Positions 56,258-64,000 are shown, counted from the stretch's first letter. The stretch: DNA of 64,000 nt from Acidimicrobiales bacterium (GCA_036399815.1 DASWMK010000057.1:1226-65225), one strand, 5' to 3'. Program-made: numbers and translations. Notes: generated by a model not told the origin, from the sequence alone.

Positions 56258-56740
56258 TCAGTCGCTGGCCCGGCGGCGGCCCTCGACCCTGGCCTTCTCC
56301 TGCTGCTCCCGGCGGTGCCGGGGCCGGTCGGCGTCCGACCGGGCCAGCACCGACCAGACCTCCTCCAGCAGCGCGTCGGCGTGGAAGGGGCGGTCGAGGA
56401 AGCCGTCGATCCCCGACTGCCACGAGAACATCGGGTTGCTCCCCTGGCGGGCCAGCAGCACGACCCGCACGGACTGCACGGCCGAGTCCCGGGAGTGGCG
56501 GATGGCGTCGAGCAGCTTGAGGTTGGCCCCGCTCGCGCCCAGGTCGAGCACGGCGACGTCGGGGTGTTCGGCGGCGGCGACGGCCATGGCCCGGTCGTGG
56601 GACGGCGCGGTCAGCACGTCGTAGCCGGCCCGCTCGAGGAGTCGGCGCAGCAGCTCCAGCGCGTCCTGGTCGTCCTGGACGACCAGCACGCGGGCCGGGC
56701 CGCCCGGCGCCCCCCGCTCAGTCCTGGACCGTCGGAGCAA
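56258..56740 (-). CDS. stand-alone receiver-domain protein (atypical)
   Basis: Contains VLVVQDDQDALELL...DVAVLDLG...FLDRPF. The usual Lys of the KPF motif is Arg. The alternative start, GTG 56689, would avoid overlap with the upstream gene. Confidence 0.6.
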   Translation of the reverse strand: MLRRSRTERGAPGGPARVLVVQDDQDALELLRRLLERAGYDVLTAPSHDRAMAVAAAEHPDVAVLDLGASGANLKLLDAIRHSRDSAVQSVRVVLLARQGSNPMFSWQSGIDGFLDRPFHADALLEEVWSVLARSDADRPRHRREQQEKARVEGRRRASD

Positions 56741-58931
56741 CGGCCGCCCCCTGGCGTCTCCCGTCGCCGGCCTGGAGGGCGTCGAGGACGTGGATGGCGA
56801 TGTCCGCCACCTTCACCTCGTCGTCGTCCTTGCCGGCGCCCTTCACACCGTCGTCGATCATGATGTAGCAGAACGGGCAGGCGGTAGCGATGCGGCCGGC
56901 GCCGGTGGCGATGAGCTCCTCCGAGCGGGCGTCGTTGACCCGCTTGCCGAGCGTCTCCTCCATCCACATCCTGGCCCCGCCGGCCCCGCAGCAGAGGCCC
57001 TTGTTGGCGTTGCGGGGCGCCTCGACGACCTCGACCCCGCCGAGCGAGGCGATCACCCGCCGGGGGGCCAGGTACACGTCGTTGTGGCGGCCGAGGTAGC
57101 AGGAGTCGTGGTACACGATGCGCTCGGCGAGCGAGGCGCCGCTCAGGTCGAGGCGGCCGGAGGTGATCAGCTGGTCGAGCAGCTGGCTGTGGTGGATCAC
57201 CTCGTAGCGCCCGCCCAGCTGGGGGTACTCGTTGGCCAGCGTGTTGAAGCAGTGCGGGCACTGGGCGACGATCTTCCTCACCCCCATGCCCTCGAACGTC
57301 TCGACGTTCTGCATGGCGAGCATCTGGTACAGGTACTCGTTGCCCGAGCGCCTGGCCGGGTCCCCCGAGCACAGCTCGGAGGGACCGAGGACGGCGAAGT
57401 CCACGCCGGCCCGCTGCATCAGCTTGGCCATGGCCCGCGTGACCCGCCGGTTCTTGTCGTCGAAGGAGCCGGCGCAGCCGACGAAGTAGAGGTACTCGGC
57501 GTCGAGGGGCGCCGAGCCGTCGACGACGCGGACGCCGTCGAGGCCCCTCGCCCAGTCGGCCCGCTCGCCCTGGCTCATCCCCCACGGGTTCGAGGAGTTC
57601 TCCATCGACCGGTAGGCGGCGCCCAGCTCGGTCGGGAAGTTGGACTCCATGAGCGACAGGTAGCGCCGCATGTCGAGGATCTTGTCGAGGATCTCGATGC
57701 CGACCGGGCAGGCCTCGTCGCAGGCCTTGCACGACGTGCAGGCCCAGATCTCCTCGGGCGTGATCCGCTCGAACACGTTGCTCGCCGACACCGTGATGTC
57801 GCCGTCGACGCCGAGGGGCGGCGACACGGGCGGCGTGCCCGTGAGCGCCATGGTCTCGCCCACCTTGAGGACGATCTCGCGCGGGTCGAGCGACTTGCCG
57901 GTCAGGTGGGCCGGGCAGGACGCCGTGCACCGGCCGCACATGGTGCAGGCGTCGGTGTCGAGCAGCTGCTTCCAGGTGAAGTCCTCGACGGCCGACGCGC
58001 CGAACGTCTCGAGCTCGGTCTCCATCAGGTTGGGCAGCGGCTTCATGGCGCCCTTGGGCCGCTCCCGGTCCCGCAGGTAGAGGTTGAGCGGCGAGGTGAA
58101 CATGTGCCGCAGCATCGTGACCGGGAGGATGGCGAGGAAGGCCAGGAAGAACAGGGCGTGGACGATCCACCAGCCCTGGTGCCAGCCGCTCAGGTGGTCG
58201 GCCCCGTCCACGAGGCCGGACAGGGGGTAGCCGACCCACGACCACCGCTCCCACTCCTGGCGGTCGCCGAGGGCGATGCGGAACGCCTCGGCCCCGAAGC
58301 CGGTCACCCCGATGCCGAGGAACACGAGGAGGATCAGCGCGTGCTCGGGCTTGGACTTGATGCGGATCCGGTACGGGCGCCAGGGGCCGTAGCGGCGGAC
58401 GAGCGCCCACACCACGCCGACGAGGAACAGCACCCCGGCCGTGTCGGCCACGAACGAGTAGGCCCGGTACACGTCGCCGTGCAGGAACTTGGCCGACTCC
58501 GGCATCTGGTGGTCGATCTCGAGCACCGTGGTGACGGCCAACAGCACGAGGAAGCTGAAGTAGATCAGCGAGTGCATGACGCCGGCGGCGGGGTCGCGGA
58601 GGACGGTCTGCATGTAGACCCCGGCCCGGAAGTCGCCCAGCCGGCGCTTGACGTTGGCGGCCGTCGTGTCCCGGCGGTCGGGCTTGCCCCGCTCCCAGTT
58701 GCGGACGCGGTTGGCGAACTGGACGGTCCCGTAGACGAGGAGGAGCGCGGTCAGGGTGTAGAAGACGGCTTCGACGACGTCCGGGACGTTGCCGAAGGTC
58801 CGCCGGCTGACCGGCGAGTCGTCGTGGAACCCGAAGAGCGACGCCGTCGCGTACGAGCCGACGGTGACGATCGTGACCAGCGCCCCGATGGCGATGGCGA
58901 CGTGGCGGGCGCGGACCCTGGTGCCGTTCAT
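56718..58931 (-). CDS. membrane-bound iron-sulfur oxidoreductase (NarI/DsrM-like TM domain + 2x[4Fe-4S] + two CCG domains, HdrD/DsrK-like; Rv0338c-like)
   Basis: 737 aa. N-terminal ~5-6 TM domain, CTMCGRCTASCP and CTSCKACDEACP ferredoxin motifs, and two Cys-rich CCG-type motifs (...FVGCAGSFD...; ...KGLCCGAGG...). Confidence 0.85.
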   Translation of the reverse strand: MNGTRVRARHVAIAIGALVTIVTVGSYATASLFGFHDDSPVSRRTFGNVPDVVEAVFYTLTALLLVYGTVQFANRVRNWERGKPDRRDTTAANVKRRLGDFRAGVYMQTVLRDPAAGVMHSLIYFSFLVLLAVTTVLEIDHQMPESAKFLHGDVYRAYSFVADTAGVLFLVGVVWALVRRYGPWRPYRIRIKSKPEHALILLVFLGIGVTGFGAEAFRIALGDRQEWERWSWVGYPLSGLVDGADHLSGWHQGWWIVHALFFLAFLAILPVTMLRHMFTSPLNLYLRDRERPKGAMKPLPNLMETELETFGASAVEDFTWKQLLDTDACTMCGRCTASCPAHLTGKSLDPREIVLKVGETMALTGTPPVSPPLGVDGDITVSASNVFERITPEEIWACTSCKACDEACPVGIEILDKILDMRRYLSLMESNFPTELGAAYRSMENSSNPWGMSQGERADWARGLDGVRVVDGSAPLDAEYLYFVGCAGSFDDKNRRVTRAMAKLMQRAGVDFAVLGPSELCSGDPARRSGNEYLYQMLAMQNVETFEGMGVRKIVAQCPHCFNTLANEYPQLGGRYEVIHHSQLLDQLITSGRLDLSGASLAERIVYHDSCYLGRHNDVYLAPRRVIASLGGVEVVEAPRNANKGLCCGAGGARMWMEETLGKRVNDARSEELIATGAGRIATACPFCYIMIDDGVKGAGKDDDEVKVADIAIHVLDALQAGDGRRQGAAVAPTVQD

Positions 58932-58992
58932 GTCGCCGCGGAAACTACTCCCGGGCCGTCGCCCGGAACGAACCCCCTGGCGCCGTCCGGGG

Positions 58993-59415
58993 TCAGGCGA
59001 AGGCCTTGGCGTCCAGCTCCCGCACGCGGGCGGCGAGGCTGGTCAGGAGCTTCCTCGCCACGGTCGGCACCTCGTCCAGCAGCCCCGAGAACTCGCGGGC
59101 CCCGATGACCAGCACGGTCATCGCCCCGTCGGCGACGACGGTGGCCGTGCGGGGCCCGTGGTCGAGCAGGGACAGCTCGCCGGCGGCATCGCCGGGGCCG
59201 AGCGTGGCGACCCGGCGGCCGTTGCGGCGCACGGTGGCCGTGCCGTCGACGATCACGAAGCACTCCCGGCCGACCTGGCCCTGCTCCATGAGCACGCGGC
59301 CGGGCTCGACCTGGAGCTCGTCGGCGGCCCTGGCCACCCGCTGGAGGTCGCGCTTGGACAGGGACCGGAACAGCGGCACCTGCGCGAGGTGCTCGAGGTA
59401 GGCAGCTCTGGGCAC
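58993..59415 (-). CDS. cyclic nucleotide-binding domain protein (effector domain only)
   Basis: Own start at GTG 59415: VPRAAYLEHLAQVPLFRSLSKRDLQRVA...GRECFVIVDGTATV...GPGDAAGELSLLD...RTATVVA. No DNA-binding domain follows. The track ORF (to 59940) is an N-terminal artefact. Confidence 0.75.
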   Translation of the reverse strand: MPRAAYLEHLAQVPLFRSLSKRDLQRVARAADELQVEPGRVLMEQGQVGRECFVIVDGTATVRRNGRRVATLGPGDAAGELSLLDHGPRTATVVADGAMTVLVIGAREFSGLLDEVPTVARKLLTSLAARVRELDAKAFA

Positions 59416-59491
59416 CGAAGGAGTGTAGGGACTGGCGCCGTTCACGGGCAGGAAACCCCGCCGAAACGCGCCGTGCCTACGGTCGGGAGCG

Positions 59492-60019
59492 ATGGACGTC
59501 GCCAAGGTGCGCTGGCCGTCGCAGGGCGCCGACCTCGAGCGACTGCGGGCCGCCGACCGCCCCCGCCTCGTGCTCGTGGAGCCGGGCGCGCCCCCGCCGG
59601 TGCCGACCAGCTGCCGGGAGGACTGGGTCCGGCTCCCGGCCGACGACGGCGACGTGGCCGCCCGCCTCGACGGCATCCGCCGGCGCACGTCGGCCCACGG
59701 CGAGCCCGTGCCGGTCGTGGACGAGGACGGCGTGCTCCGCCACCGCTCGGCCCTGGTGCCGCTGCCACCGGTCGAGGCCCGCCTGGCCGCCGCGCTCGTC
59801 GCCCGCCGGGGCGCGGTCGTGAGCCGCGAGGCGCTGGCCCGGGCCGGCTGGCCGTCCGGCGCGCCGGGCCGCAACGCCCTCGACGTGCACGTGCTGCGCC
59901 TGCGCCGCCGGCTGCCGCCGCTCGGCCTCGCCATCCGCACCGTGCGCTCCCGCGGCTACCTGCTGGAGGCGTGCGACGGTCGGTCAGACGGGCGACAGCG
60001 AGCCGTGCGCGACGCGTAA
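59492..60019 (+). CDS. OmpR/PhoB-type winged-helix transcriptional regulator with only a remnant of a receiver domain
   Basis: C-terminus LPPVEARLAAALVARRGAVVSREALARAGW...NALDVHVLRLRRRL...IRTVRSRGYLLE is a trans_reg_C pattern. The about 85-aa N-terminus lacks the acidic pocket and phospho-Asp context. Located directly upstream of amtB. Confidence 0.7.
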   Translation: MDVAKVRWPSQGADLERLRAADRPRLVLVEPGAPPPVPTSCREDWVRLPADDGDVAARLDGIRRRTSAHGEPVPVVDEDGVLRHRSALVPLPPVEARLAAALVARRGAVVSREALARAGWPSGAPGRNALDVHVLRLRRRLPPLGLAIRTVRSRGYLLEACDGRSDGRQRAVRDA

Positions 60020-60064
60020 CGGCGGGCACACCGACGCGAAACCGGCCGTCCGTACCGTCCGGGC

Positions 60065-61624
60065 ATGCGACCTCTCCGCCGTTCCATCGCCGGCGCCGCG
60101 CTCGCGGTGGCCGCCGCGCTCGTCCTGGCCGCTCCGGCCGGGGCCCAGACGGGGACCGGCGCCCCCGAGGAGGCGGCCACCGCGCTCGGCCAGCAGGTGA
60201 ACCTCCTGTGGATCGTGCTCGGGGCCATCCTCGTGGTGTTCATGCAGGCCGGGTTCGCCCTGGTCGAGACCGGGTTCTGCCGGGCCAAGCACGCCGCCCA
60301 CGTCATGAGCACGAACTTCGCCGTCTTCGGCCTGGGGTTCGTCGCCTTCTTCCTCGTCGGCTACGGCCTGATGTTCGGCGGCTACAGCTACGTGCTGCCG
60401 GGCTACGACTTCGGCTATGCCCACCCGGTCGGGGACCGCCTGTTTGCCATCGGCGACTGGGTGTTCGTGTGGAAGGGCGGGTTCGCGCTGACCGACCTGT
60501 CCGGGCCGACGGGCGCGGCCGTCGCCGGCTTCTTCTTCTACATGGTCGCCTTCATGGACACCGTGGCGACGATCCCGACCGGCGCGATGGCCGAGCGGTG
60601 GAAGTGGACCTCGTTCGTCGGCTGGGGCCTGTTCTGCGGCGCCGTCTACTACCCGCTGTTCGGGGCGTTCACCTGGGGCGGCGGCTGGCTGAGCCAGCTC
60701 GGCAACAACCTGGAGCTCGGGTTCGGCTACGTCGACTTCGCCGGCTCGGGCGTGGTCCACGCCATGGGCGGGGTGGCCGCCCTGGCGGGCGCGGTCGTCC
60801 TCGGGCCCCGCATCGGCAAGTTCGGCCCGGACGGCATGCCGAGGACGATCCCCGGCCACCACGTCCCGATGGCGATGCTCGGCACGTTCATCCTGCTGTT
60901 CGGCTGGTTCGGCTTCAACGCCGCGTCCACCCTCGCCGCCACCGACGTGCAGTTCGCCGTCGTCGCCACCAACACCGCCATCGCCGGGGCGTTCGGGTCG
61001 GTGGTCGGCATGTTCTGGGTGATGCGCAGGACCGGCAGGCCCGACCCCGGGATGATGGTCAACGGCATGCTCGCCGGGCTGGTCGCCGTCACCGCCCCGT
61101 GCGCGTTCGTGGACCCGTGGGCCGCGGCCGTGATCGGCTCGGTGGCGGCCGTGGTCGTGATCGAGGCCATCTGGTTCGTCGAGCGCCGGCTGAAGGTCGA
61201 CGACCCGGTCGGCGCCATCTCCGTCCACGGCGTGGGCGGCCTGCTCGGCGTCCTCAGCGTCGGCATCTTCGCCAACGGCCGCTACGGCGCGGGGTGGAAC
61301 CTGACCGCCACGGGGGCGGCGACCGACGCCGCCGGGGTCACGGGCATCCTCACCGACGTCGGCCTGGGCCTCCGCCAGCTGGCCTCGCAGGCGATCGCCG
61401 CGCTCACGATCTGCGGGATGGGCCTCGTCGCCTACGCGTTCTTCCGGGTGCAGGACGCGCTGACCGCCGGCGGGATCCGGCCGAGCGAGGCCGACGAGCT
61501 CGCCGGGCTCGACCTGCCCGAGACGGGCGCGCTCGCCTACCCGGAGTTCGTCCTCGGCGAGCCGGCCGCCGCGGGGCCGGTGGCCGTCAGGCCCGACGAC
61601 CGGGAGGTCGTCACCCTGCCGTGA
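60065..61624 (+). CDS. amtB: ammonium transporter
   Basis: 519 aa. Signal peptide, then MQAGFALVETGF, DFAGSGVVH, WFGFN and ISVHGVGG motifs. Confidence 0.93.
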   Translation: MRPLRRSIAGAALAVAAALVLAAPAGAQTGTGAPEEAATALGQQVNLLWIVLGAILVVFMQAGFALVETGFCRAKHAAHVMSTNFAVFGLGFVAFFLVGYGLMFGGYSYVLPGYDFGYAHPVGDRLFAIGDWVFVWKGGFALTDLSGPTGAAVAGFFFYMVAFMDTVATIPTGAMAERWKWTSFVGWGLFCGAVYYPLFGAFTWGGGWLSQLGNNLELGFGYVDFAGSGVVHAMGGVAALAGAVVLGPRIGKFGPDGMPRTIPGHHVPMAMLGTFILLFGWFGFNAASTLAATDVQFAVVATNTAIAGAFGSVVGMFWVMRRTGRPDPGMMVNGMLAGLVAVTAPCAFVDPWAAAVIGSVAAVVVIEAIWFVERRLKVDDPVGAISVHGVGGLLGVLSVGIFANGRYGAGWNLTATGAATDAAGVTGILTDVGLGLRQLASQAIAALTICGMGLVAYAFFRVQDALTAGGIRPSEADELAGLDLPETGALAYPEFVLGEPAAAGPVAVRPDDREVVTLP

Positions 61625-61730
61625 CCGCCGCCGCGCCGACGCCGCTCTCCGGGGCACCGCCCGACCCGCTCGGCCGAGGCCGTCCCCCCGGCCGGCGCCC
61701 GGGCCCGGCGGTGCCCCGGCGGCGGGGCCG

Positions 61731-64000
61731 GTGAGCACCGGGGCCGCCCTCGCCGACATCCTCGCCGTCCTCCTCGCCGCCAAGCTGGCGGCCGAGGGGG
61801 CGGAGCGGCTCGGCGTGCCGGCCGTGGTCGGGGAGATCCTGGCCGGCCTCGTCGTCGGCCCGTCGGTCCTCGGGCTGGTCGAGCCGAGCGACGTGCTCGC
61901 CGTGCTGGCCGAGCTGGGCGTGATCCTCCTCCTGCTCGAGGTCGGCCTCCAGACCGACCCGGCCGAGCTGGGCGCGGTCGGGGGCCGCTCGCTGTCGGTG
62001 GCCGGCGTCGGCGTGGCCCTGCCGTTCGCCCTCGGCTACGGCGCCGTCGCCGCCATGGGGGAGGGGGGCTCGGCGGCCCTGTTCACCGGGGCGGCGCTGA
62101 CGGCGACCAGCGTCGGCATCACCGCCCGGGTCTTCGCCGACCTGCGGGCGCTGGCGACCCCCGAGGCGAGGACCGTGCTCGGCGCGGCCGTGGCCGACGA
62201 CGTGATCGGCCTCGTCCTCCTCACCGTCGTCGTCCGGGCCGTGACCGAGGGGTCGGTGTCGGCCGGCTCGGTGGCCGCCCTCGTCGCCGCCGCCCTCGCC
62301 TTCCTCGTCGTCGCCGGGGCGGCCGGGCTGCGGCTGGCCCCGCCGCTGTTCGACCGGGTCGACCGGGTGGCCCGCTCGGCGGGGACGATGGTGGCGCTCG
62401 CGCTCGCGTTCACCCTGGCCGTGGCCGAGCTGGCGTCGGTCGCCCGGCTCGCGCCCATCGTCGGCGCGTTCGTCGCCGGGCTGGCGCTCGGGCGCAGCCG
62501 CCAGGCCGACCGCATCGGGCGGGAGCTGGCGCCGGTCGGCCACCTGCTCGTGCCCGTGTTCTTCCTCCAGATCGGCATCGAGACCGAGGTCGCCGCCTTC
62601 GCCCGCCCGGCCGTGCTGGCCACCGCCGGCGTGCTCGTCGCCGTCGCCGTCGCCGGCAAGGTGGCGTCGGGGTGGGCGATGCGGGGCTCGGCCGGGGACC
62701 GGCTGCTCGTCGGCCTGGCCATGGTCCCGAGGGGCGAGGTGGGGCTGATCTTCGCGGCGATCGGGCTGCGGGACGGCGTGCTCGACCAGGACCTGTACGC
62801 CGGGCTGCTCCTCGTCGTGCTGGCCACGACCCTGGCGACGCCGCCCCTCCTCCGCGCCCGCCTCCGGCGCCTGCGGGCGACGGTGCCCGCCCCGGCCGCC
62901 GCCGGACCGGAGCCGGCGGGCGGCTGGCTGCGGACCGCGGGCGGGGTCGTGGACCTGGCCGGCGGGCGTCCCCCGGCCCACCGGGCGCTCGACCTCGCGC
63001 TCGACGCCGCGGTGGCCGTGCGCGACGCCGCCCCCGGCCCCGCGCTCCTCGACTGGCTGGGCGAGGCCGCCGGCGCCCCGCTGCGCTGGGACCGCCGGGC
63101 GACGGCCGCCCTCCTCCGGGTCCTGCGGGAGGGCACGCCCCGCTCGTGGCGGTTCCTCGAGACGACCGGCGTGCTCGACCGGGCGCTGCCCGAGCTGGCC
63201 GAGGCCGTCCGCCGCCGCCGGGCCGATCCCTTCGACCTCGACCCGGCCGGCGCCCTGCGGTGGCGGGTGGTCGAGGCGCTGCACGACCGCGTCGCCGACG
63301 ACCGTCACGCGGCCGCCGAGTACGCCCGCCTGGCGCACCCCGAGTGGCTGCTGCTCGCCGCGCTGCTCGTCGAGGCGGCCGGCGACGAGCCGCCGGTGGC
63401 GCTGGCCCGCCGCCTGGCCCACCGCCTGGACGTGGGCGCCGTCGCCGAGCAGGAGCTGGCCCTCCTCGTCGCGGCCACGGGCCTGCTGCGGTCGGCGGCG
63501 GCCAGGGGCCCGACCGAGGACGTCGTCCTCCCGCTCGCCGCCCACCTCGACACGCCCGAGCGGGCCCGGGCCCTGTTCCTGCTCGCGCTCGCCGTCGCGG
63601 GGGACGACCGGCTGGAGGCCGCCCGCCTCCGGGACGCGCACGACGCCGTGCAGGCGGCGCTGGCCCACCCCGAGCTGACCGGCCGGGCGGCGCGCAACCT
63701 CGTCGGCCGCCGCCGGGCCGAGGTGGCCCGCCTGGTGAACGGCGACGCCGGGGTGGCGGCCCGGCTGGCGGCCGCGCCCAGGGCCCACGTGCTCGCCACC
63801 GACGCCGCCGCCCTGGCCCGCCAGGCCCGGCTGCTGGAGCCGCCGCCCCGGCCGGGCGAGGCGCGGGCGGCGGTGGCCGACCACGGCACGGGCTGGGTGG
63901 TCGACGTCGCCGCCCGGGACTTCCCCGGCCTGCTCGCCACCGCCGCCGGCGCGCTGGCGGCGCTCGGCCACCACGCCACGCGGGTGACGGCCGGGACGTG
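61731..64000 (+). CDS. fusion protein: CPA2-type cation/proton antiporter (N-terminal) + degenerate GlnD-like HD region and ACT domain (C-terminal); 3' end beyond window
   Basis: Not in the ORF track because there is no stop inside the window. My translation from GTG 61731 is VSTGAALADILAVLLAAKLAAEGAERLGVPAVVGEILAGLVVGPSVLG...MVPRGEVGLIFAAIG...LLRARLRRLRA, which is antiporter. It continues in the same frame with ...WRFLETTGVLDRALPELAEAV...HPEWLLLAALLVEAAGD...DTPERARALFLLALAV...GTGWVVDVAARDFPGLLATAAGALAALG, which is GlnD-like. I checked frame continuity codon by codon at the junction, 62820..62940. Confidence 0.75.
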   Translation, partial: MSTGAALADILAVLLAAKLAAEGAERLGVPAVVGEILAGLVVGPSVLGLVEPSDVLAVLAELGVILLLLEVGLQTDPAELGAVGGRSLSVAGVGVALPFALGYGAVAAMGEGGSAALFTGAALTATSVGITARVFADLRALATPEARTVLGAAVADDVIGLVLLTVVVRAVTEGSVSAGSVAALVAAALAFLVVAGAAGLRLAPPLFDRVDRVARSAGTMVALALAFTLAVAELASVARLAPIVGAFVAGLALGRSRQADRIGRELAPVGHLLVPVFFLQIGIETEVAAFARPAVLATAGVLVAVAVAGKVASGWAMRGSAGDRLLVGLAMVPRGEVGLIFAAIGLRDGVLDQDLYAGLLLVVLATTLATPPLLRARLRRLRATVPAPAAAGPEPAGGWLRTAGGVVDLAGGRPPAHRALDLALDAAVAVRDAAPGPALLDWLGEAAGAPLRWDRRATAALLRVLREGTPRSWRFLETTGVLDRALPELAEAVRRRRADPFDLDPAGALRWRVVEALHDRVADDRHAAAEYARLAHPEWLLLAALLVEAAGDEPPVALARRLAHRLDVGAVAEQELALLVAATGLLRSAAARGPTEDVVLPLAAHLDTPERARALFLLALAVAGDDRLEAARLRDAHDAVQAALAHPELTGRAARNLVGRRRAEVARLVNGDAGVAARLAAAPRAHVLATDAAALARQARLLEPPPRPGEARAAVADHGTGWVVDVAARDFPGLLATAAGALAALGHHATRVTAGT

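What the first reader, a model, noticed from the sequence alone, without database searches (positions are those of the whole stretch)
59492..64000. amtB is followed by a cation/proton antiporter fused to a degenerate GlnD-like sensor module; no PII gene in the locus
Seen:
- amtB (60065..61624) is followed after 106 nt by a single frame, open from GTG 61731 to the window end (756 codons, no stop).
- About the first 385 codons read as a CPA2 Na_H-exchanger (GEILAGLVVGPSVLG, MVPRGEVGLIFAAIG).
- The rest matches GlnD (PII uridylyltransferase) motif by motif:
  - WRFLETTGVLDRALPELAEAV corresponds to GlnD ..GVL..LPEF.
  - PEWLLLAALLVEAAGD sits where GlnD has L.LA.LFHDI.KG, so the HD dyad is replaced by VE.
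  - AEQELALLVAATGLL corresponds to GlnD ..LV..LV..HLLM.
  - DTPERARALFLLALAV corresponds to ..ERL.LLYLLTVAD.
  - GTGWVVDVAARDFPGLLATAAGALAALG is a typical ACT-domain start.
- No nucleotidyltransferase domain is present.
- Upstream (59492..60019) sits an OmpR-type wHTH protein with only a receiver remnant.

Established: actinobacteria normally carry amtB-glnK-glnD.

Inference: a glutamine/nitrogen-sensing module that has lost both catalytic functions may gate an ion antiporter co-expressed with the ammonium channel. One possible role is charge or pH compensation during NH4+ uptake. I am not aware of this architecture being described, but I cannot check databases here.
Basis: partly seen in the sequence, partly recalled or inferred. 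Interest (0 to 1): 0.7.

Follow-up and report, generated by a model that had tools for sequence, protein, structure and literature searches.

The report
Nitrogen-regulated antiporter with dead GlnD sensor tail
An ammonium-transporter gene is followed by a gene for a sodium/proton-type antiporter whose tail is a catalytically dead copy of the nitrogen-sensor enzyme GlnD; this uncharacterised but widespread Acidimicrobiia family probably links ion or pH balance to nitrogen status.

Summary
GTG 61731 opens one frame that runs off the window. A 99%-identical metagenome protein shows the full length, 891 aa.

- **Transporter domain:** residues 1-385 are a NapA-like CPA2 antiporter, 41% identical to the Thermus NapA structure, with the DD motif intact.
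- **Sensor tail:** residues ~449-878 are collinear with positions 370-845 of the GlnD profile. They comprise an HD domain that has lost every metal ligand plus two ACT domains. There is no nucleotidyltransferase.
- **Spread:** at least 277 species, almost all Acidimicrobiia MAGs, and always fused. Databases name it only generically, and I found no paper on it.
- **Linked genes:** a truncated OmpR-type regulator (42 of 55 loci) and a GlnK-less AmtB paralog (26 of 55).
- **New here:** a GlnR-type operator, TTCAC-n6-GAAAC-n6-GAAAC, lies 24 nt before the regulator gene. It recurs in at least 55 of 69 species and also precedes canonical amtB-glnK-glnD, so the operon belongs to the nitrogen regulon.
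- **PII:** no glnK or glnD lies downstream, but relatives carry canonical amtB-glnK-glnD next door. The system is an addition to PII signalling, not a replacement.

Gating by glutamine and the ion transported remain inference. I rate it a new variant of known kinds, of moderate to high interest.

The parts
59441..59467 (+). GlnR-type operator: three direct repeats at 11-bp spacing, TTCAC-n6-GAAAC-n6-GAAAC
   Evidence: Single exact match in the window; 0.00 expected even with 2 mismatches. The same box ends 23-27 nt before the wHTH start codon in most related loci: at least 55 of 69 score >=14 bits, against 0.1% of random windows. It matches the published GlnR a-site gTnAc and b-site GaAAC with 6-nt spacers (PMC10235972).
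59478..59483 (+). -10-like hexamer TACGGT (TAnnnT), 8 nt before the ATG; suggests a leaderless or near-leaderless mRNA
   Evidence: Read directly. TACCGT/TACGGT is conserved at this position across the loci. That TAnnnT is the actinobacterial -10 consensus is from my own knowledge. The sigma-70 consensus scan found nothing.
59492..60019 (+). Truncated OmpR-family regulator (175 aa): receiver remnant (roughly beta4/beta5-alpha5, no phospho-acceptor region) plus a wHTH DNA-binding domain
   Evidence: Trans_reg_C, E 1.9e-13. Receiver models align only from position ~97. The family is ~168-180 aa throughout, with a near-invariant DNA-binding domain. Best NCBIfam match is the DNA-binding domain of PRK07239, the HemD-wHTH (NnaR) type.
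60065..61624 (+). AmtB-type ammonium transporter of a GlnK-less paralog clade ('amtB2')
   Evidence: Ammonium_transp, 319 bits. D and twin-His motifs VDFAGSGVVH and AISVHGV are present. Orthologues at 60-70% identity lie next to the fusion in 26 of 55 loci. None of 37 is followed by glnK, whereas 7 of 7 canonical amtB genes (32% identity) are.
61731..62885 (+). Fusion protein, residues 1-385: NapA-like CPA2 cation/proton antiporter domain (13 TM helices in the model)
   Evidence: Na_H_Exchanger, E 2e-61. Foldseek top hit is NapA 5bz2: 41% identity, TM-score 0.91 normalised to NapA, rmsd 2.5 A. KefC gives 24%. T126, S127, D156, D157 and K310 are invariant in 118 sequences.
62193..62204 (+). ADDV: the DD ion-binding motif (D156, D157) of electrogenic CPA2 antiporters
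   Evidence: Invariant columns in A3; coordinates. The role of the motif is from my own knowledge of NapA and NhaA.
62886..63845 (+). Fusion protein, residues 386-705: linker with a beta-hairpin, then a GlnD-type helical region containing a catalytically dead HD domain
   Evidence: Collinear with TIGR01693 positions 370 onward and with canonical GlnD residues ~300-650. pLDDT is ~90. Pfam HD does not match, although it matches the canonical GlnD of a related genome.
63369..63374 (+). V547-E548, the position of the GlnD HD dyad
   Evidence: Alignment columns 182-183. Six of six canonical GlnDs have H-D. In the family His occurs 0 times in 64 (L, V, S or I instead) and the acid is kept in 58 of 64. 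The first His and the last Asp of H..HD..D are also lost.
63861..64000 (+). Start of ACT domain 1, cut by the window end. The gene should run to about 64406, with ACT1 at ~711-787 and ACT2 at ~800-880.
   Evidence: P0052 on L083 gives the missing 135 residues. ACT scores 36.7 bits, above the 27-bit cut-off. The beta-alpha-beta-beta-alpha-beta units appear in the model.

Best explanation
The window ends in a nitrogen-regulated operon. In order it holds a GlnR-type operator, a truncated OmpR-type regulator, a GlnK-less AmtB paralog, and an 891-aa fusion protein.

The fusion is a NapA-like electrogenic cation/proton antiporter. Its cytoplasmic tail is a paralog of the C-terminal ~480 residues of GlnD. 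The break lies just after the transferase half. All HD metal ligands are gone and both ACT domains are kept.

**Shown**
- The architecture and the homology of both halves.
- The loss of the catalytic residues.
- Conservation in at least 277 mostly Acidimicrobiia species.
- The gene linkage and the operator.

**Inferred**
- The tail acts as an allosteric regulatory domain, much as the KTN domain does in KefC.
- Its ACT pair reads nitrogen status. Glutamine is the likely ligand, by analogy with GlnD.
- The dead HD domain passes the signal to the membrane domain.
- Cation/H+ exchange is thereby tuned to ammonium uptake and assimilation. The cation could be Na+, K+ or possibly NH4+.

The system works beside the PII/GlnD system, not instead of it.
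For: - **Continuous ORF.** It is seen in the window, in an independent 99%-identical contig, and in more than 60 species.
- **GlnD homology.** TIGR01693 gives E 2.6e-17 for the full-length protein and 1e-38 to 5e-49 for homologues, always against profile positions 370-850. Pairwise comparison with a canonical GlnD gives E down to 1e-25.
- **Dead HD.** None of 64 members keeps the ligand His residues.
- **Intact transporter.** 41% identity to NapA with the DD motif and the conserved Lys invariant.
- **Well-folded model.** pLDDT 89-90, pTM 0.79-0.87.
- **Always fused.** The module is never found free: every shorter hit tested was a truncated antiporter fusion.
- **Nitrogen context.** An amtB paralog is adjacent in 26 of 55 loci, in upstream, downstream and divergent orders. 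A GlnR-type box precedes the operon in at least 55 of 69 species and also precedes canonical amtB-glnK-glnD in 4 loci (motif definition from PMC10235972). In L016 the gene lies directly after amtB-glnK-glnD.
- **Operon structure.** No terminator-like site lies between the three genes, and the gaps are 45 and 106 nt.
Against: - No ligand, ion or regulatory effect was tested, and none can be with these tools.
- 29 of 55 loci have no amtB paralog within the fetched flanks, so the transporter is not obligatorily tied to AmtB.
- A NapA-type exchanger working in its usual direction (2 H+ in, 1 Na+ out) would add to the acid load from ammonium assimilation rather than relieve it. The physiological logic is therefore unclear.
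- The protein that binds the box is unknown. It could be global GlnR or the operon's own wHTH.
- That GlnD's ACT domains mediate glutamine control comes from my recollection of E. coli work, not from a test here.
- No solved GlnD structure exists to check the fold.
Confidence: 0.6

Rival explanations
1. PII receptor. The dead HD domain is a pseudoenzyme that still binds its old substrate, the modified or unmodified T-loop of GlnK. The antiporter is then one more PII-controlled transporter, and the ACT domains modulate that docking.
For: In GlnD the HD domain acts on the PII T-loop (my own knowledge). The family keeps the HD fold and many invariant surface residues (W473, R474, P487, R560, E573) while losing only the catalytic ligands. 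Relatives encode glnK close by.
Against: No glnK lies in the window or in the 7 kb downstream. The linked AmtB clade is never followed by glnK. No interaction data exist.
Confidence: 0.2
2. Signal transducer for the wHTH regulator. The membrane protein senses nitrogen or ion status and controls the truncated OmpR-type protein, for example by sequestering it at the membrane, in place of a histidine kinase. Transport would be secondary.
For: The wHTH gene is the most constant neighbour: 42 of 55 loci, and directly upstream in 35. It lacks the phospho-acceptor part of the receiver, so it needs another input. It sits behind an OmpR-type direct-repeat operator, which allows autoregulation.
Against: 13 of 55 loci lack a nearby wHTH gene yet keep both the box and the fusion gene. 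The same box precedes canonical amtB-glnK-glnD, which fits a global GlnR at least as well. All ion-binding residues are strictly conserved, which argues for real transport.
Confidence: 0.12
3. A generic Kef- or NapA-like ion homeostasis protein with amino-acid-binding ACT domains, with no specific link to nitrogen. The neighbourhood with amtB would be incidental.
For: Databases call it KefB, Na+:H+ antiporter or ACT protein. About half of the loci have no adjacent amtB.
Against: The tail is specifically GlnD-derived, not a free-standing ACT pair. The amtB paralog recurs in three different arrangements. A GlnR-type box is shared with amtB-glnK-glnD promoters.
Confidence: 0.06
4. Artefact or decaying gene: a frameshift or misassembly joined two genes, or the tail is a dying remnant of glnD.
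For: Several long-read MAG loci show the gene split by frame changes (L001/L008, L002, L014, L026, L030, L055, L070, L076).
Against: Most of those splits fall inside the antiporter domain, and the antiporter and tail remain adjacent and collinear in every split locus. More than 60 species and an independent contig have one intact ORF. There are 84 invariant columns in 118 sequences. The models are confident.
Confidence: 0.02

Closest known systems
GlnD (PII uridylyl/adenylyl-transferase and removing enzyme; TIGR01693)
   Same: The C-terminal ~480 residues are collinear: linker, HD-domain helices, intervening helices, ACT1 and ACT2. Identity to a GlnD of the same class is 26-31%. Both sit in nitrogen loci with amtB.
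   Different: No nucleotidyltransferase or GlnD_UR_UTase domain. All HD metal ligands are lost. The module is fused to a membrane transporter. It scores 62-134 bits against a 519-bit family cut-off, so it cannot modify PII.
NapA of Thermus thermophilus (CPA2 Na+/H+ antiporter; PDB 5bz2, 4bwz)
   Same: 41% identity, TM-score 0.91 normalised to NapA, and the same DD motif numbering (D156, D157).
   Different: NapA has no cytoplasmic regulatory domain. The ion specificity of the new family is unknown.
KefC/KefB (CPA2 K+/H+ systems gated by a C-terminal KTN/RCK domain)
   Same: The same design principle: a CPA2 membrane domain followed by a ligand-binding cytoplasmic gate. NCBIfam Kef models match the membrane part (61-65 bits).
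   Different: Only 24% identity. No KTN/RCK domain. The gate is GlnD-derived and the ligand is not glutathione.
AmtB-GlnK-GlnD module of Actinobacteria under GlnR control
   Same: An ammonium transporter, a GlnD-type sensor and a GlnR-type operator appear in one locus.
   Different: No PII protein. The sensor output would be direct control of a transporter instead of covalent modification of GlnK. The AmtB belongs to a separate, GlnK-less clade.
Eukaryotic CPA exchangers with sensor tails (SLC9C1 with a cyclic-nucleotide domain; plant SOS1)
   Same: Long cytoplasmic regulatory tails on a Na+/H+ exchanger fold. They appear as full-length Foldseek hits.
   Different: Unrelated tail domains and only 12-14% identity.
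AmhT/AmhM of Bacillus pseudofirmus (CPA2 system reported to efflux K+ and NH4+; my recollection, paper not in the library)
   Same: A CPA2 protein linked to ammonium handling. It is a precedent for NH4+ as a CPA2 substrate.
   Different: A two-component system with a separate KTN-like subunit and no GlnD-like domain. Sequence similarity was not tested here.

Membership tests
GlnD (TIGR01693 / PRK03381 equivalogs) | N-terminal nucleotidyltransferase domain plus GlnD_UR_UTase (PF08335) | tested here: not met
   No Pfam hit in the window protein, in P0052 or in three homologues. Both are found in the canonical GlnD of L016. Profile alignment starts at position 370 of 850.
GlnD (TIGR01693 / PRK03381 equivalogs) | HD domain with the H..HD..D metal ligands | tested here: not met
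   The helices align, but at the ligand positions His or Asp occurs in 0/64, 10/64 (second His of the YHRFTVDRH stretch), 0/64 (His of the dyad) and 0/64 (last Asp). The window has D, L, V-E and V. Pfam HD gives no hit.
GlnD (TIGR01693 / PRK03381 equivalogs) | Two C-terminal ACT domains | tested here: met
   ACT scores 36.7-60 bits, above the 27-bit cut-off, in the full-length protein and homologues (two matched stretches in the homologues, one in P0052). The model shows two ACT units. The window itself holds only the first ~40 residues of ACT1.
GlnD (TIGR01693 / PRK03381 equivalogs) | Whole-protein score above the curated cut-off (519 bits) | tested here: not met
   62 bits for P0052 and 121-134 bits for homologues.
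CPA2 cation:proton antiporters (PF00999; TIGR00932) | Na_H_Exchanger membrane domain above the Pfam gathering score | tested here: met
   208 bits against a 26.2-bit cut-off. TIGR00932 gives 174 bits, below its 238-bit subfamily cut-off.
CPA2 cation:proton antiporters (PF00999; TIGR00932) | NhaA/NapA fold with the TM5 Asp-Asp motif and the conserved Lys | tested here: met
   Foldseek hit to NapA with TM-score 0.91 and 41% identity. D156, D157 and K310 are invariant.
CPA2 cation:proton antiporters (PF00999; TIGR00932) | Cation/H+ exchange activity and ion selectivity | not testable with these tools
   Needs vesicle or complementation assays.
Kef-type glutathione-gated K+ efflux systems | C-terminal KTN/RCK (TrkA_N) domain | tested here: not met
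   No such Pfam hit. Kef equivalog scores are 61-74 bits against cut-offs of 752-804.
Amt/AmtB ammonium transporters (the neighbouring gene) | Ammonium_transp domain with the conserved Asp and twin His | tested here: met
   319 bits. VDFAGSGVVH and AISVHGV motifs are present. Their equivalence to E. coli D160, H168 and H318 is from my own knowledge.
Amt/AmtB ammonium transporters (the neighbouring gene) | Pairing with glnK | tested here: not met
   None of 37 genes of this clade is followed by glnK, whereas 7 of 7 canonical amtB genes are. None lies in the window or in L083.
Actinobacterial GlnR regulon | GlnR box: a-site gTnAc and b-site GaAAC separated by 6 nt, upstream of the promoter | tested here: met
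   TTCAC-n6-GAAAC-n6-GAAAC at 59441-59467. It is conserved in at least 55 of 69 loci and is present before canonical amtB operons. Motif definition from PMC10235972.
Actinobacterial GlnR regulon | Binding by GlnR and nitrogen-dependent transcription | not testable with these tools
   Needs EMSA, ChIP or RNA-seq. No glnR gene was identified here.
OmpR/PhoB response regulators (the wHTH gene) | Complete receiver domain with a phospho-acceptor Asp | tested here: not met
   No Response_reg hit. Receiver models align only from position ~97. The family is uniformly ~170 aa.

The most novel reading that the evidence does not exclude
The fusion is a PII-independent safety valve for a GlnK-less AmtB. 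When glutamine rises after an ammonium upshift, the GlnD-derived ACT/pseudo-HD tail directly opens, or reverses, a CPA2 exchanger. The exchanger exports NH4+ or K+ against H+, possibly in a physical complex with AmtB2. This would do by ion flux what GlnD-GlnK does by plugging the channel. It would be the first case of a GlnD sensor module re-used as a transporter gate, and of glutamine-gated ion transport in bacteria.
Probability: 0.2. Interest if true: 0.8.

Novelty: new variant of a known kind. Interest (0 to 1): 0.6.

Why it matters
- **A sensor re-used as a gate.** GlnD is the primary glutamine sensor of bacterial nitrogen control, and its sensing half has no solved structure. Here that half has been detached from catalysis and fixed onto an ion transporter in hundreds of Acidimicrobiia species, a group that is abundant in soil and water and mostly uncultured.
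- **A simple test system for GlnD sensing.** If the tail gates transport, it gives a direct read-out of what the GlnD ACT/HD module senses.
- **A second route of nitrogen control.** It would show nitrogen status controlling membrane ion fluxes without PII.
- **An explanation for the GlnK-less AmtB.** It could explain how this AmtB clade is kept safe from runaway ammonium uptake.
- **A regulon handle.** The conserved GlnR-type box offers a first means to define the nitrogen regulon of this class.

Tried and rejected
- **PDB comparison.** The PDB holds no GlnD. The tail found only weak matches: helical bodies of class-II nucleotidyltransferases (3wfp, E 2e-4) and assorted tandem-ACT proteins.
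- **Literature.** Searches for GlnD + antiporter + ACT, CPA2 + ACT, and antiporter/ACT/ammonium/glutamine found nothing on this family, and an Amt review did not mention it. The AmhT papers are not in the library.
- **Source genome.** It is not among the GTDB representatives, where the best identity is 59-61%. I could not look for glnK, glnD or glnR elsewhere in it.
- **Promoter and terminator scan.** The sigma-70 consensus scan found nothing useful in this high-GC DNA.
- **Module on other N-terminal domains: rejected.** All shorter or odd-length hits I checked are truncated antiporter fusions.
- **Frameshift artefact: rejected**.
- **wHTH versus GlnR.** A residue-level comparison of the wHTH recognition helix with GlnR could not be done because I had no GlnR sequence. 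I could only note V132, R136 and R138 against the published contact residues.


Full report
**1. What is in the window**

- A 175-aa protein at 59492-60019, whose only Pfam domain is Trans_reg_C (residues 89-158, E 1.9e-13).
- amtB at 60065-61624 (Ammonium_transp, 319 bits).
- After 106 nt, a frame from GTG 61731 that is still open at base 64000 (756 codons).

Residues 18-374 of that frame are a Na_H_Exchanger domain (E 2e-61). On its own, the remaining 371 residues match GlnD only weakly (PRK05092 E 0.13-0.017; ACT E 0.063). This is because the window cuts the protein at the first strand of ACT1.

**2. Completing the protein**

A protein search with the whole frame found P0052. It is 99% identical over all 756 residues, 891 aa long, and comes from a JGI metagenome.

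Its 15.9-kb contig, L083, is about 98-99% identical in DNA to the window end. It has the same order of genes: cNMP-binding gene, wHTH, amtB, fusion.

After the fusion gene come a histidine phosphatase gene on the other strand, a peptidase M14 gene and ABC-transporter genes. There is no glnK and no glnD. The window gene should therefore end near 64406.

**3. The tail is GlnD-derived**

- Full-length P0052 hits the GlnD equivalog TIGR01693 at E 2.6e-17, residues 449-878 against profile positions 370-845 of 850.
- Three full-length homologues give 1e-35 to 1e-39 over the same span. In A1, 23 of 24 members hit TIGR01693 (best 5e-49) and all 24 hit PRK05092.
- Locus L016 holds a canonical GlnD of 835 aa (593 bits on TIGR01693; Pfam GlnD_UR_UTase, HD and ACT). 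Used as a tblastn query, its residues ~300-830 align to the tails of about 70 loci at 25-34% identity, with E down to 1e-25.

| GlnD motif | Family motif |
|---|---|
| GVLERLLPEW | GVLERALPELA |
| LLLLGALLHDVGKG | EWLLLAALILDTAG (window: LLVEAAG) |
| LAWLVRHHLLL | IALLVGDSxLL |
| ERLDLLYVLTVGDS | ERARALYLLSLA |
| ACT1 and ACT2 | ACT1 and ACT2 |

The four HD metal-ligand positions are H, H-D and D in 6 of 6 GlnDs. In the family they read as follows.
- First His: L, V, E, Q or D.
- His of the dyad: L, V, S or I (0 of 64 keep His).
- Acid of the dyad: D or E in 58 of 64.
- Last Asp: L, R or I (0 of 64 keep Asp).

No nucleotidyltransferase or PF08335 domain is present. The tail is thus a GlnD paralog that begins just after the transferase half and is dead as a phosphohydrolase.

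**4. The transporter half**

AlphaFold2 with 118 homologues gave a confident full-length model (pLDDT 89, pTM 0.79).

Foldseek against the PDB put Thermus NapA first: 5bz2, 41% identity, TM-score 0.91 normalised to NapA, rmsd 2.5 A. KefC followed at 24%.

T126, S127, D156, D157 and K310 are invariant in the family. From my own knowledge, these are the NapA ion-site residues. No KTN/RCK domain is present. The 'KefB' label carried by many database entries is therefore loose. The membrane domain is NapA-like and looks functional.

A separate model of the tail alone (pLDDT 90, pTM 0.87) shows three parts.
- A small beta-hairpin.
- About 20 helices.
- Two beta-alpha-beta-beta-alpha-beta units.

The PDB has no GlnD, and the tail found only weak matches.

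**5. How widespread, and is it always fused**

- One scan of species-representative genomes gave 277 loci encoding a relative. The 80 fetched are nearly all Acidimicrobiia or Actinomycetota MAGs.
- In every locus with upstream sequence, the antiporter domain sits immediately N-terminal to the tail.
- 63 loci have one uninterrupted frame of about 900 codons.
- The split cases are mostly long-read MAGs. Most breaks lie inside the antiporter domain and none separates it from the tail, which points to indel errors.
- A profile search of 1.84 billion cluster representatives found 879 hits at E <= 1e-30. The top 150 are ~900-aa fusions or fragments.
- Seven of the eight odd-length or shorter hits I checked carry part of the antiporter domain. 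The eighth, P0176, begins after it, like the other fragments.
- Source names are generic. Literature searches found no description.

**6. Neighbourhood**

Among the 55 loci with at least 2.5 kb on both sides:

| Neighbour | Loci |
|---|---|
| wHTH orthologue nearby | 42 (directly upstream in 35) |
| Orthologue of the window's AmtB (60-70% identity) adjacent | 26 (13 downstream, 6 upstream on the same strand, 2 adjacent divergent, 5 further upstream beyond the wHTH gene) |
| No such amtB in the fetched flanks | 29 |

The window's order, wHTH-amtB-fusion, recurs in L038, L068, L070, L071 and L078.

This AmtB clade is never followed by glnK (0 of 37). Seven loci also hold a canonical amtB at 32% identity, and all seven are followed by glnK. 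A canonical glnD lies beside it in five of them, and another in L072.

L016 reads amtB-glnK-glnD-wHTH-fusion-amtB2. The family therefore coexists with the PII system and may have arisen beside it.

**7. A GlnR-type operator (new here)**

Aligning the DNA before the wHTH genes exposed a conserved direct repeat, gTTCAC-n6-GAAAC-n6-GAAAC. It is followed by a TACCGT/TACGGT hexamer a few bases before the start codon.
- In the window the repeat is at 59441-59467. It is the only match in 64 kb, with 0.00 expected even allowing 2 mismatches.
- TACGGT ends 8 nt before the ATG, which suggests a leaderless transcript. This is inference.
- A strict pattern hit 47 times in the loci plus the window (about 1.3 Mb). 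Of these, 45 lie just upstream of the operon, including the window's own box.
- A weight matrix scored at least 14 bits upstream of the first operon gene in 55 of 69 loci. Only 0.1% of random 410-nt windows reach that score. The matrix was built from these same sites, so the strict-pattern count is the independent figure.
- Loci without a wHTH gene keep the box before the fusion gene.
- Weaker boxes precede separate or divergent amtB2 genes.
- Similar boxes precede canonical amtB-glnK-glnD in L016, L044, L064 and L074.
- The repeat matches the published GlnR element: a-site gTnAc and b-site GaAAC with 6-nt spacers, three sites being sufficient (PMC10235972).

No terminator-like site lies between the three window genes. 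The operon is therefore very probably part of the nitrogen-limitation regulon. Whether global GlnR or the operon's own wHTH binds the box is open.

**8. The wHTH protein**

- Its family is uniformly ~168-180 aa and carries only Trans_reg_C. The DNA-binding domain is almost invariant (GRNALDVHVLRLRRRL...IRTVRSRGYLLE), and the N-terminal motif PRLLLVE...EDWIRVPADDxDVRAR is conserved.
- Receiver-domain models and structures align only from position ~97. This is the beta5-alpha5 end, without the phospho-acceptor region. 'Receiver remnant' is correct.
- The best NCBIfam match of its DNA-binding domain is PRK07239, the HemD-wHTH type to which the nitrogen co-regulator NnaR belongs.

**9. Mechanism**

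Shown:
- An intact NapA-like exchanger.
- A covalently attached GlnD sensor half with dead catalysis.
- Nitrogen-type promoter architecture.
- Recurrent linkage to a GlnK-less AmtB.

Inferred:
- The tail gates the exchanger in response to nitrogen status. Glutamine is the likely ligand, by analogy with GlnD.
- This parallels KefC's KTN gate or the sensor tails of SLC9C1 and SOS1.

The ion and the direction of transport are unknown. Normal NapA operation would import protons, which fits poorly with simple pH relief. K+ or NH4+ exchange, for which CPA2 has a precedent in AmhT (my recollection), would make more physiological sense.

The rival readings are PII docking on the dead HD domain, control of the wHTH regulator, or no specific nitrogen role. 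None can be excluded without experiments.

**10. Verdict**

The family is common in sequence databases but has no described function in the literature I could search. It combines two known kinds, a regulated CPA2 antiporter and the GlnD sensor module, in a new way.

Noticed in passing
window 59441-59483; L006-L082 upstream of the wHTH and fusion genes: A conserved GlnR-type operator (TTCAC-n6-GAAAC-n6-GAAAC) and a -10-like TACGGT lie at fixed distance from the wHTH start codon. Similar boxes precede canonical amtB-glnK-glnD in L016, L044, L064 and L074.
   Followed up: yes
L016:2440-11786: One Acidimicrobiia MAG has amtB-glnK-glnD-wHTH-fusion-amtB2 in a row. This suggests the fusion arose next to glnD by partial duplication.
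   Followed up: partly
L008, L010, L011, L022, L028, L029, L037 (about 82-94 nt before the fusion gene): A subgroup without an adjacent wHTH gene has ATTAAT instead of GTTCAC as the first repeat of the box. Other wHTH-less loci (L027, L040, L045) keep GTTCAC or GTTCAT. Whether the first repeat is the wHTH protein's own site is unexplained.
   Followed up: no
L001/L008, L002, L014, L026, L030, L055, L070, L076: In long-read MAGs the fusion gene is split by frame changes, mostly inside the antiporter domain. These are probably indel errors. They generate truncated database proteins, some of which JGI names '[protein-PII] uridylyltransferase'.
   Followed up: partly
window 60065-61624 and 37 orthologues in the loci: The AmtB next to the fusion belongs to a clade that is never followed by glnK. 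It is only ~32% identical to the canonical amtB of the same genomes. It has a signal-peptide-like N-terminus and scores 265 bits on the 'marine subtype' model TIGR03644.
   Followed up: partly
window 56258-59445 (- strand): Three genes lie upstream and divergent: a 150-aa cNMP-binding protein (~58993-59445), a 737-aa membrane Fe-S/CCG-domain protein (56718-58931) and a receiver-only response regulator (56258-56740). The same genes flank the operon in L083.
   Followed up: no
window 61611-63974 (-) and other long ORFs: Very long ORFs on the opposite strand and in other frames (for example 787 aa antisense to the fusion gene) are the usual stop-poor artefacts of high-GC DNA, not genes.
   Followed up: no
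window 59492-60019; alignment A5: The ~170-aa wHTH family has an almost invariant DNA-binding domain and a conserved N-terminal EDW(I/V)R(V/L)P motif. It shares V, R and R at three recognition-helix positions with the GlnR DNA-contact residues listed in PMC10235972, but has N where GlnR has R186. This mapping rests on spacing only; I made no alignment with a GlnR sequence.
   Followed up: partly
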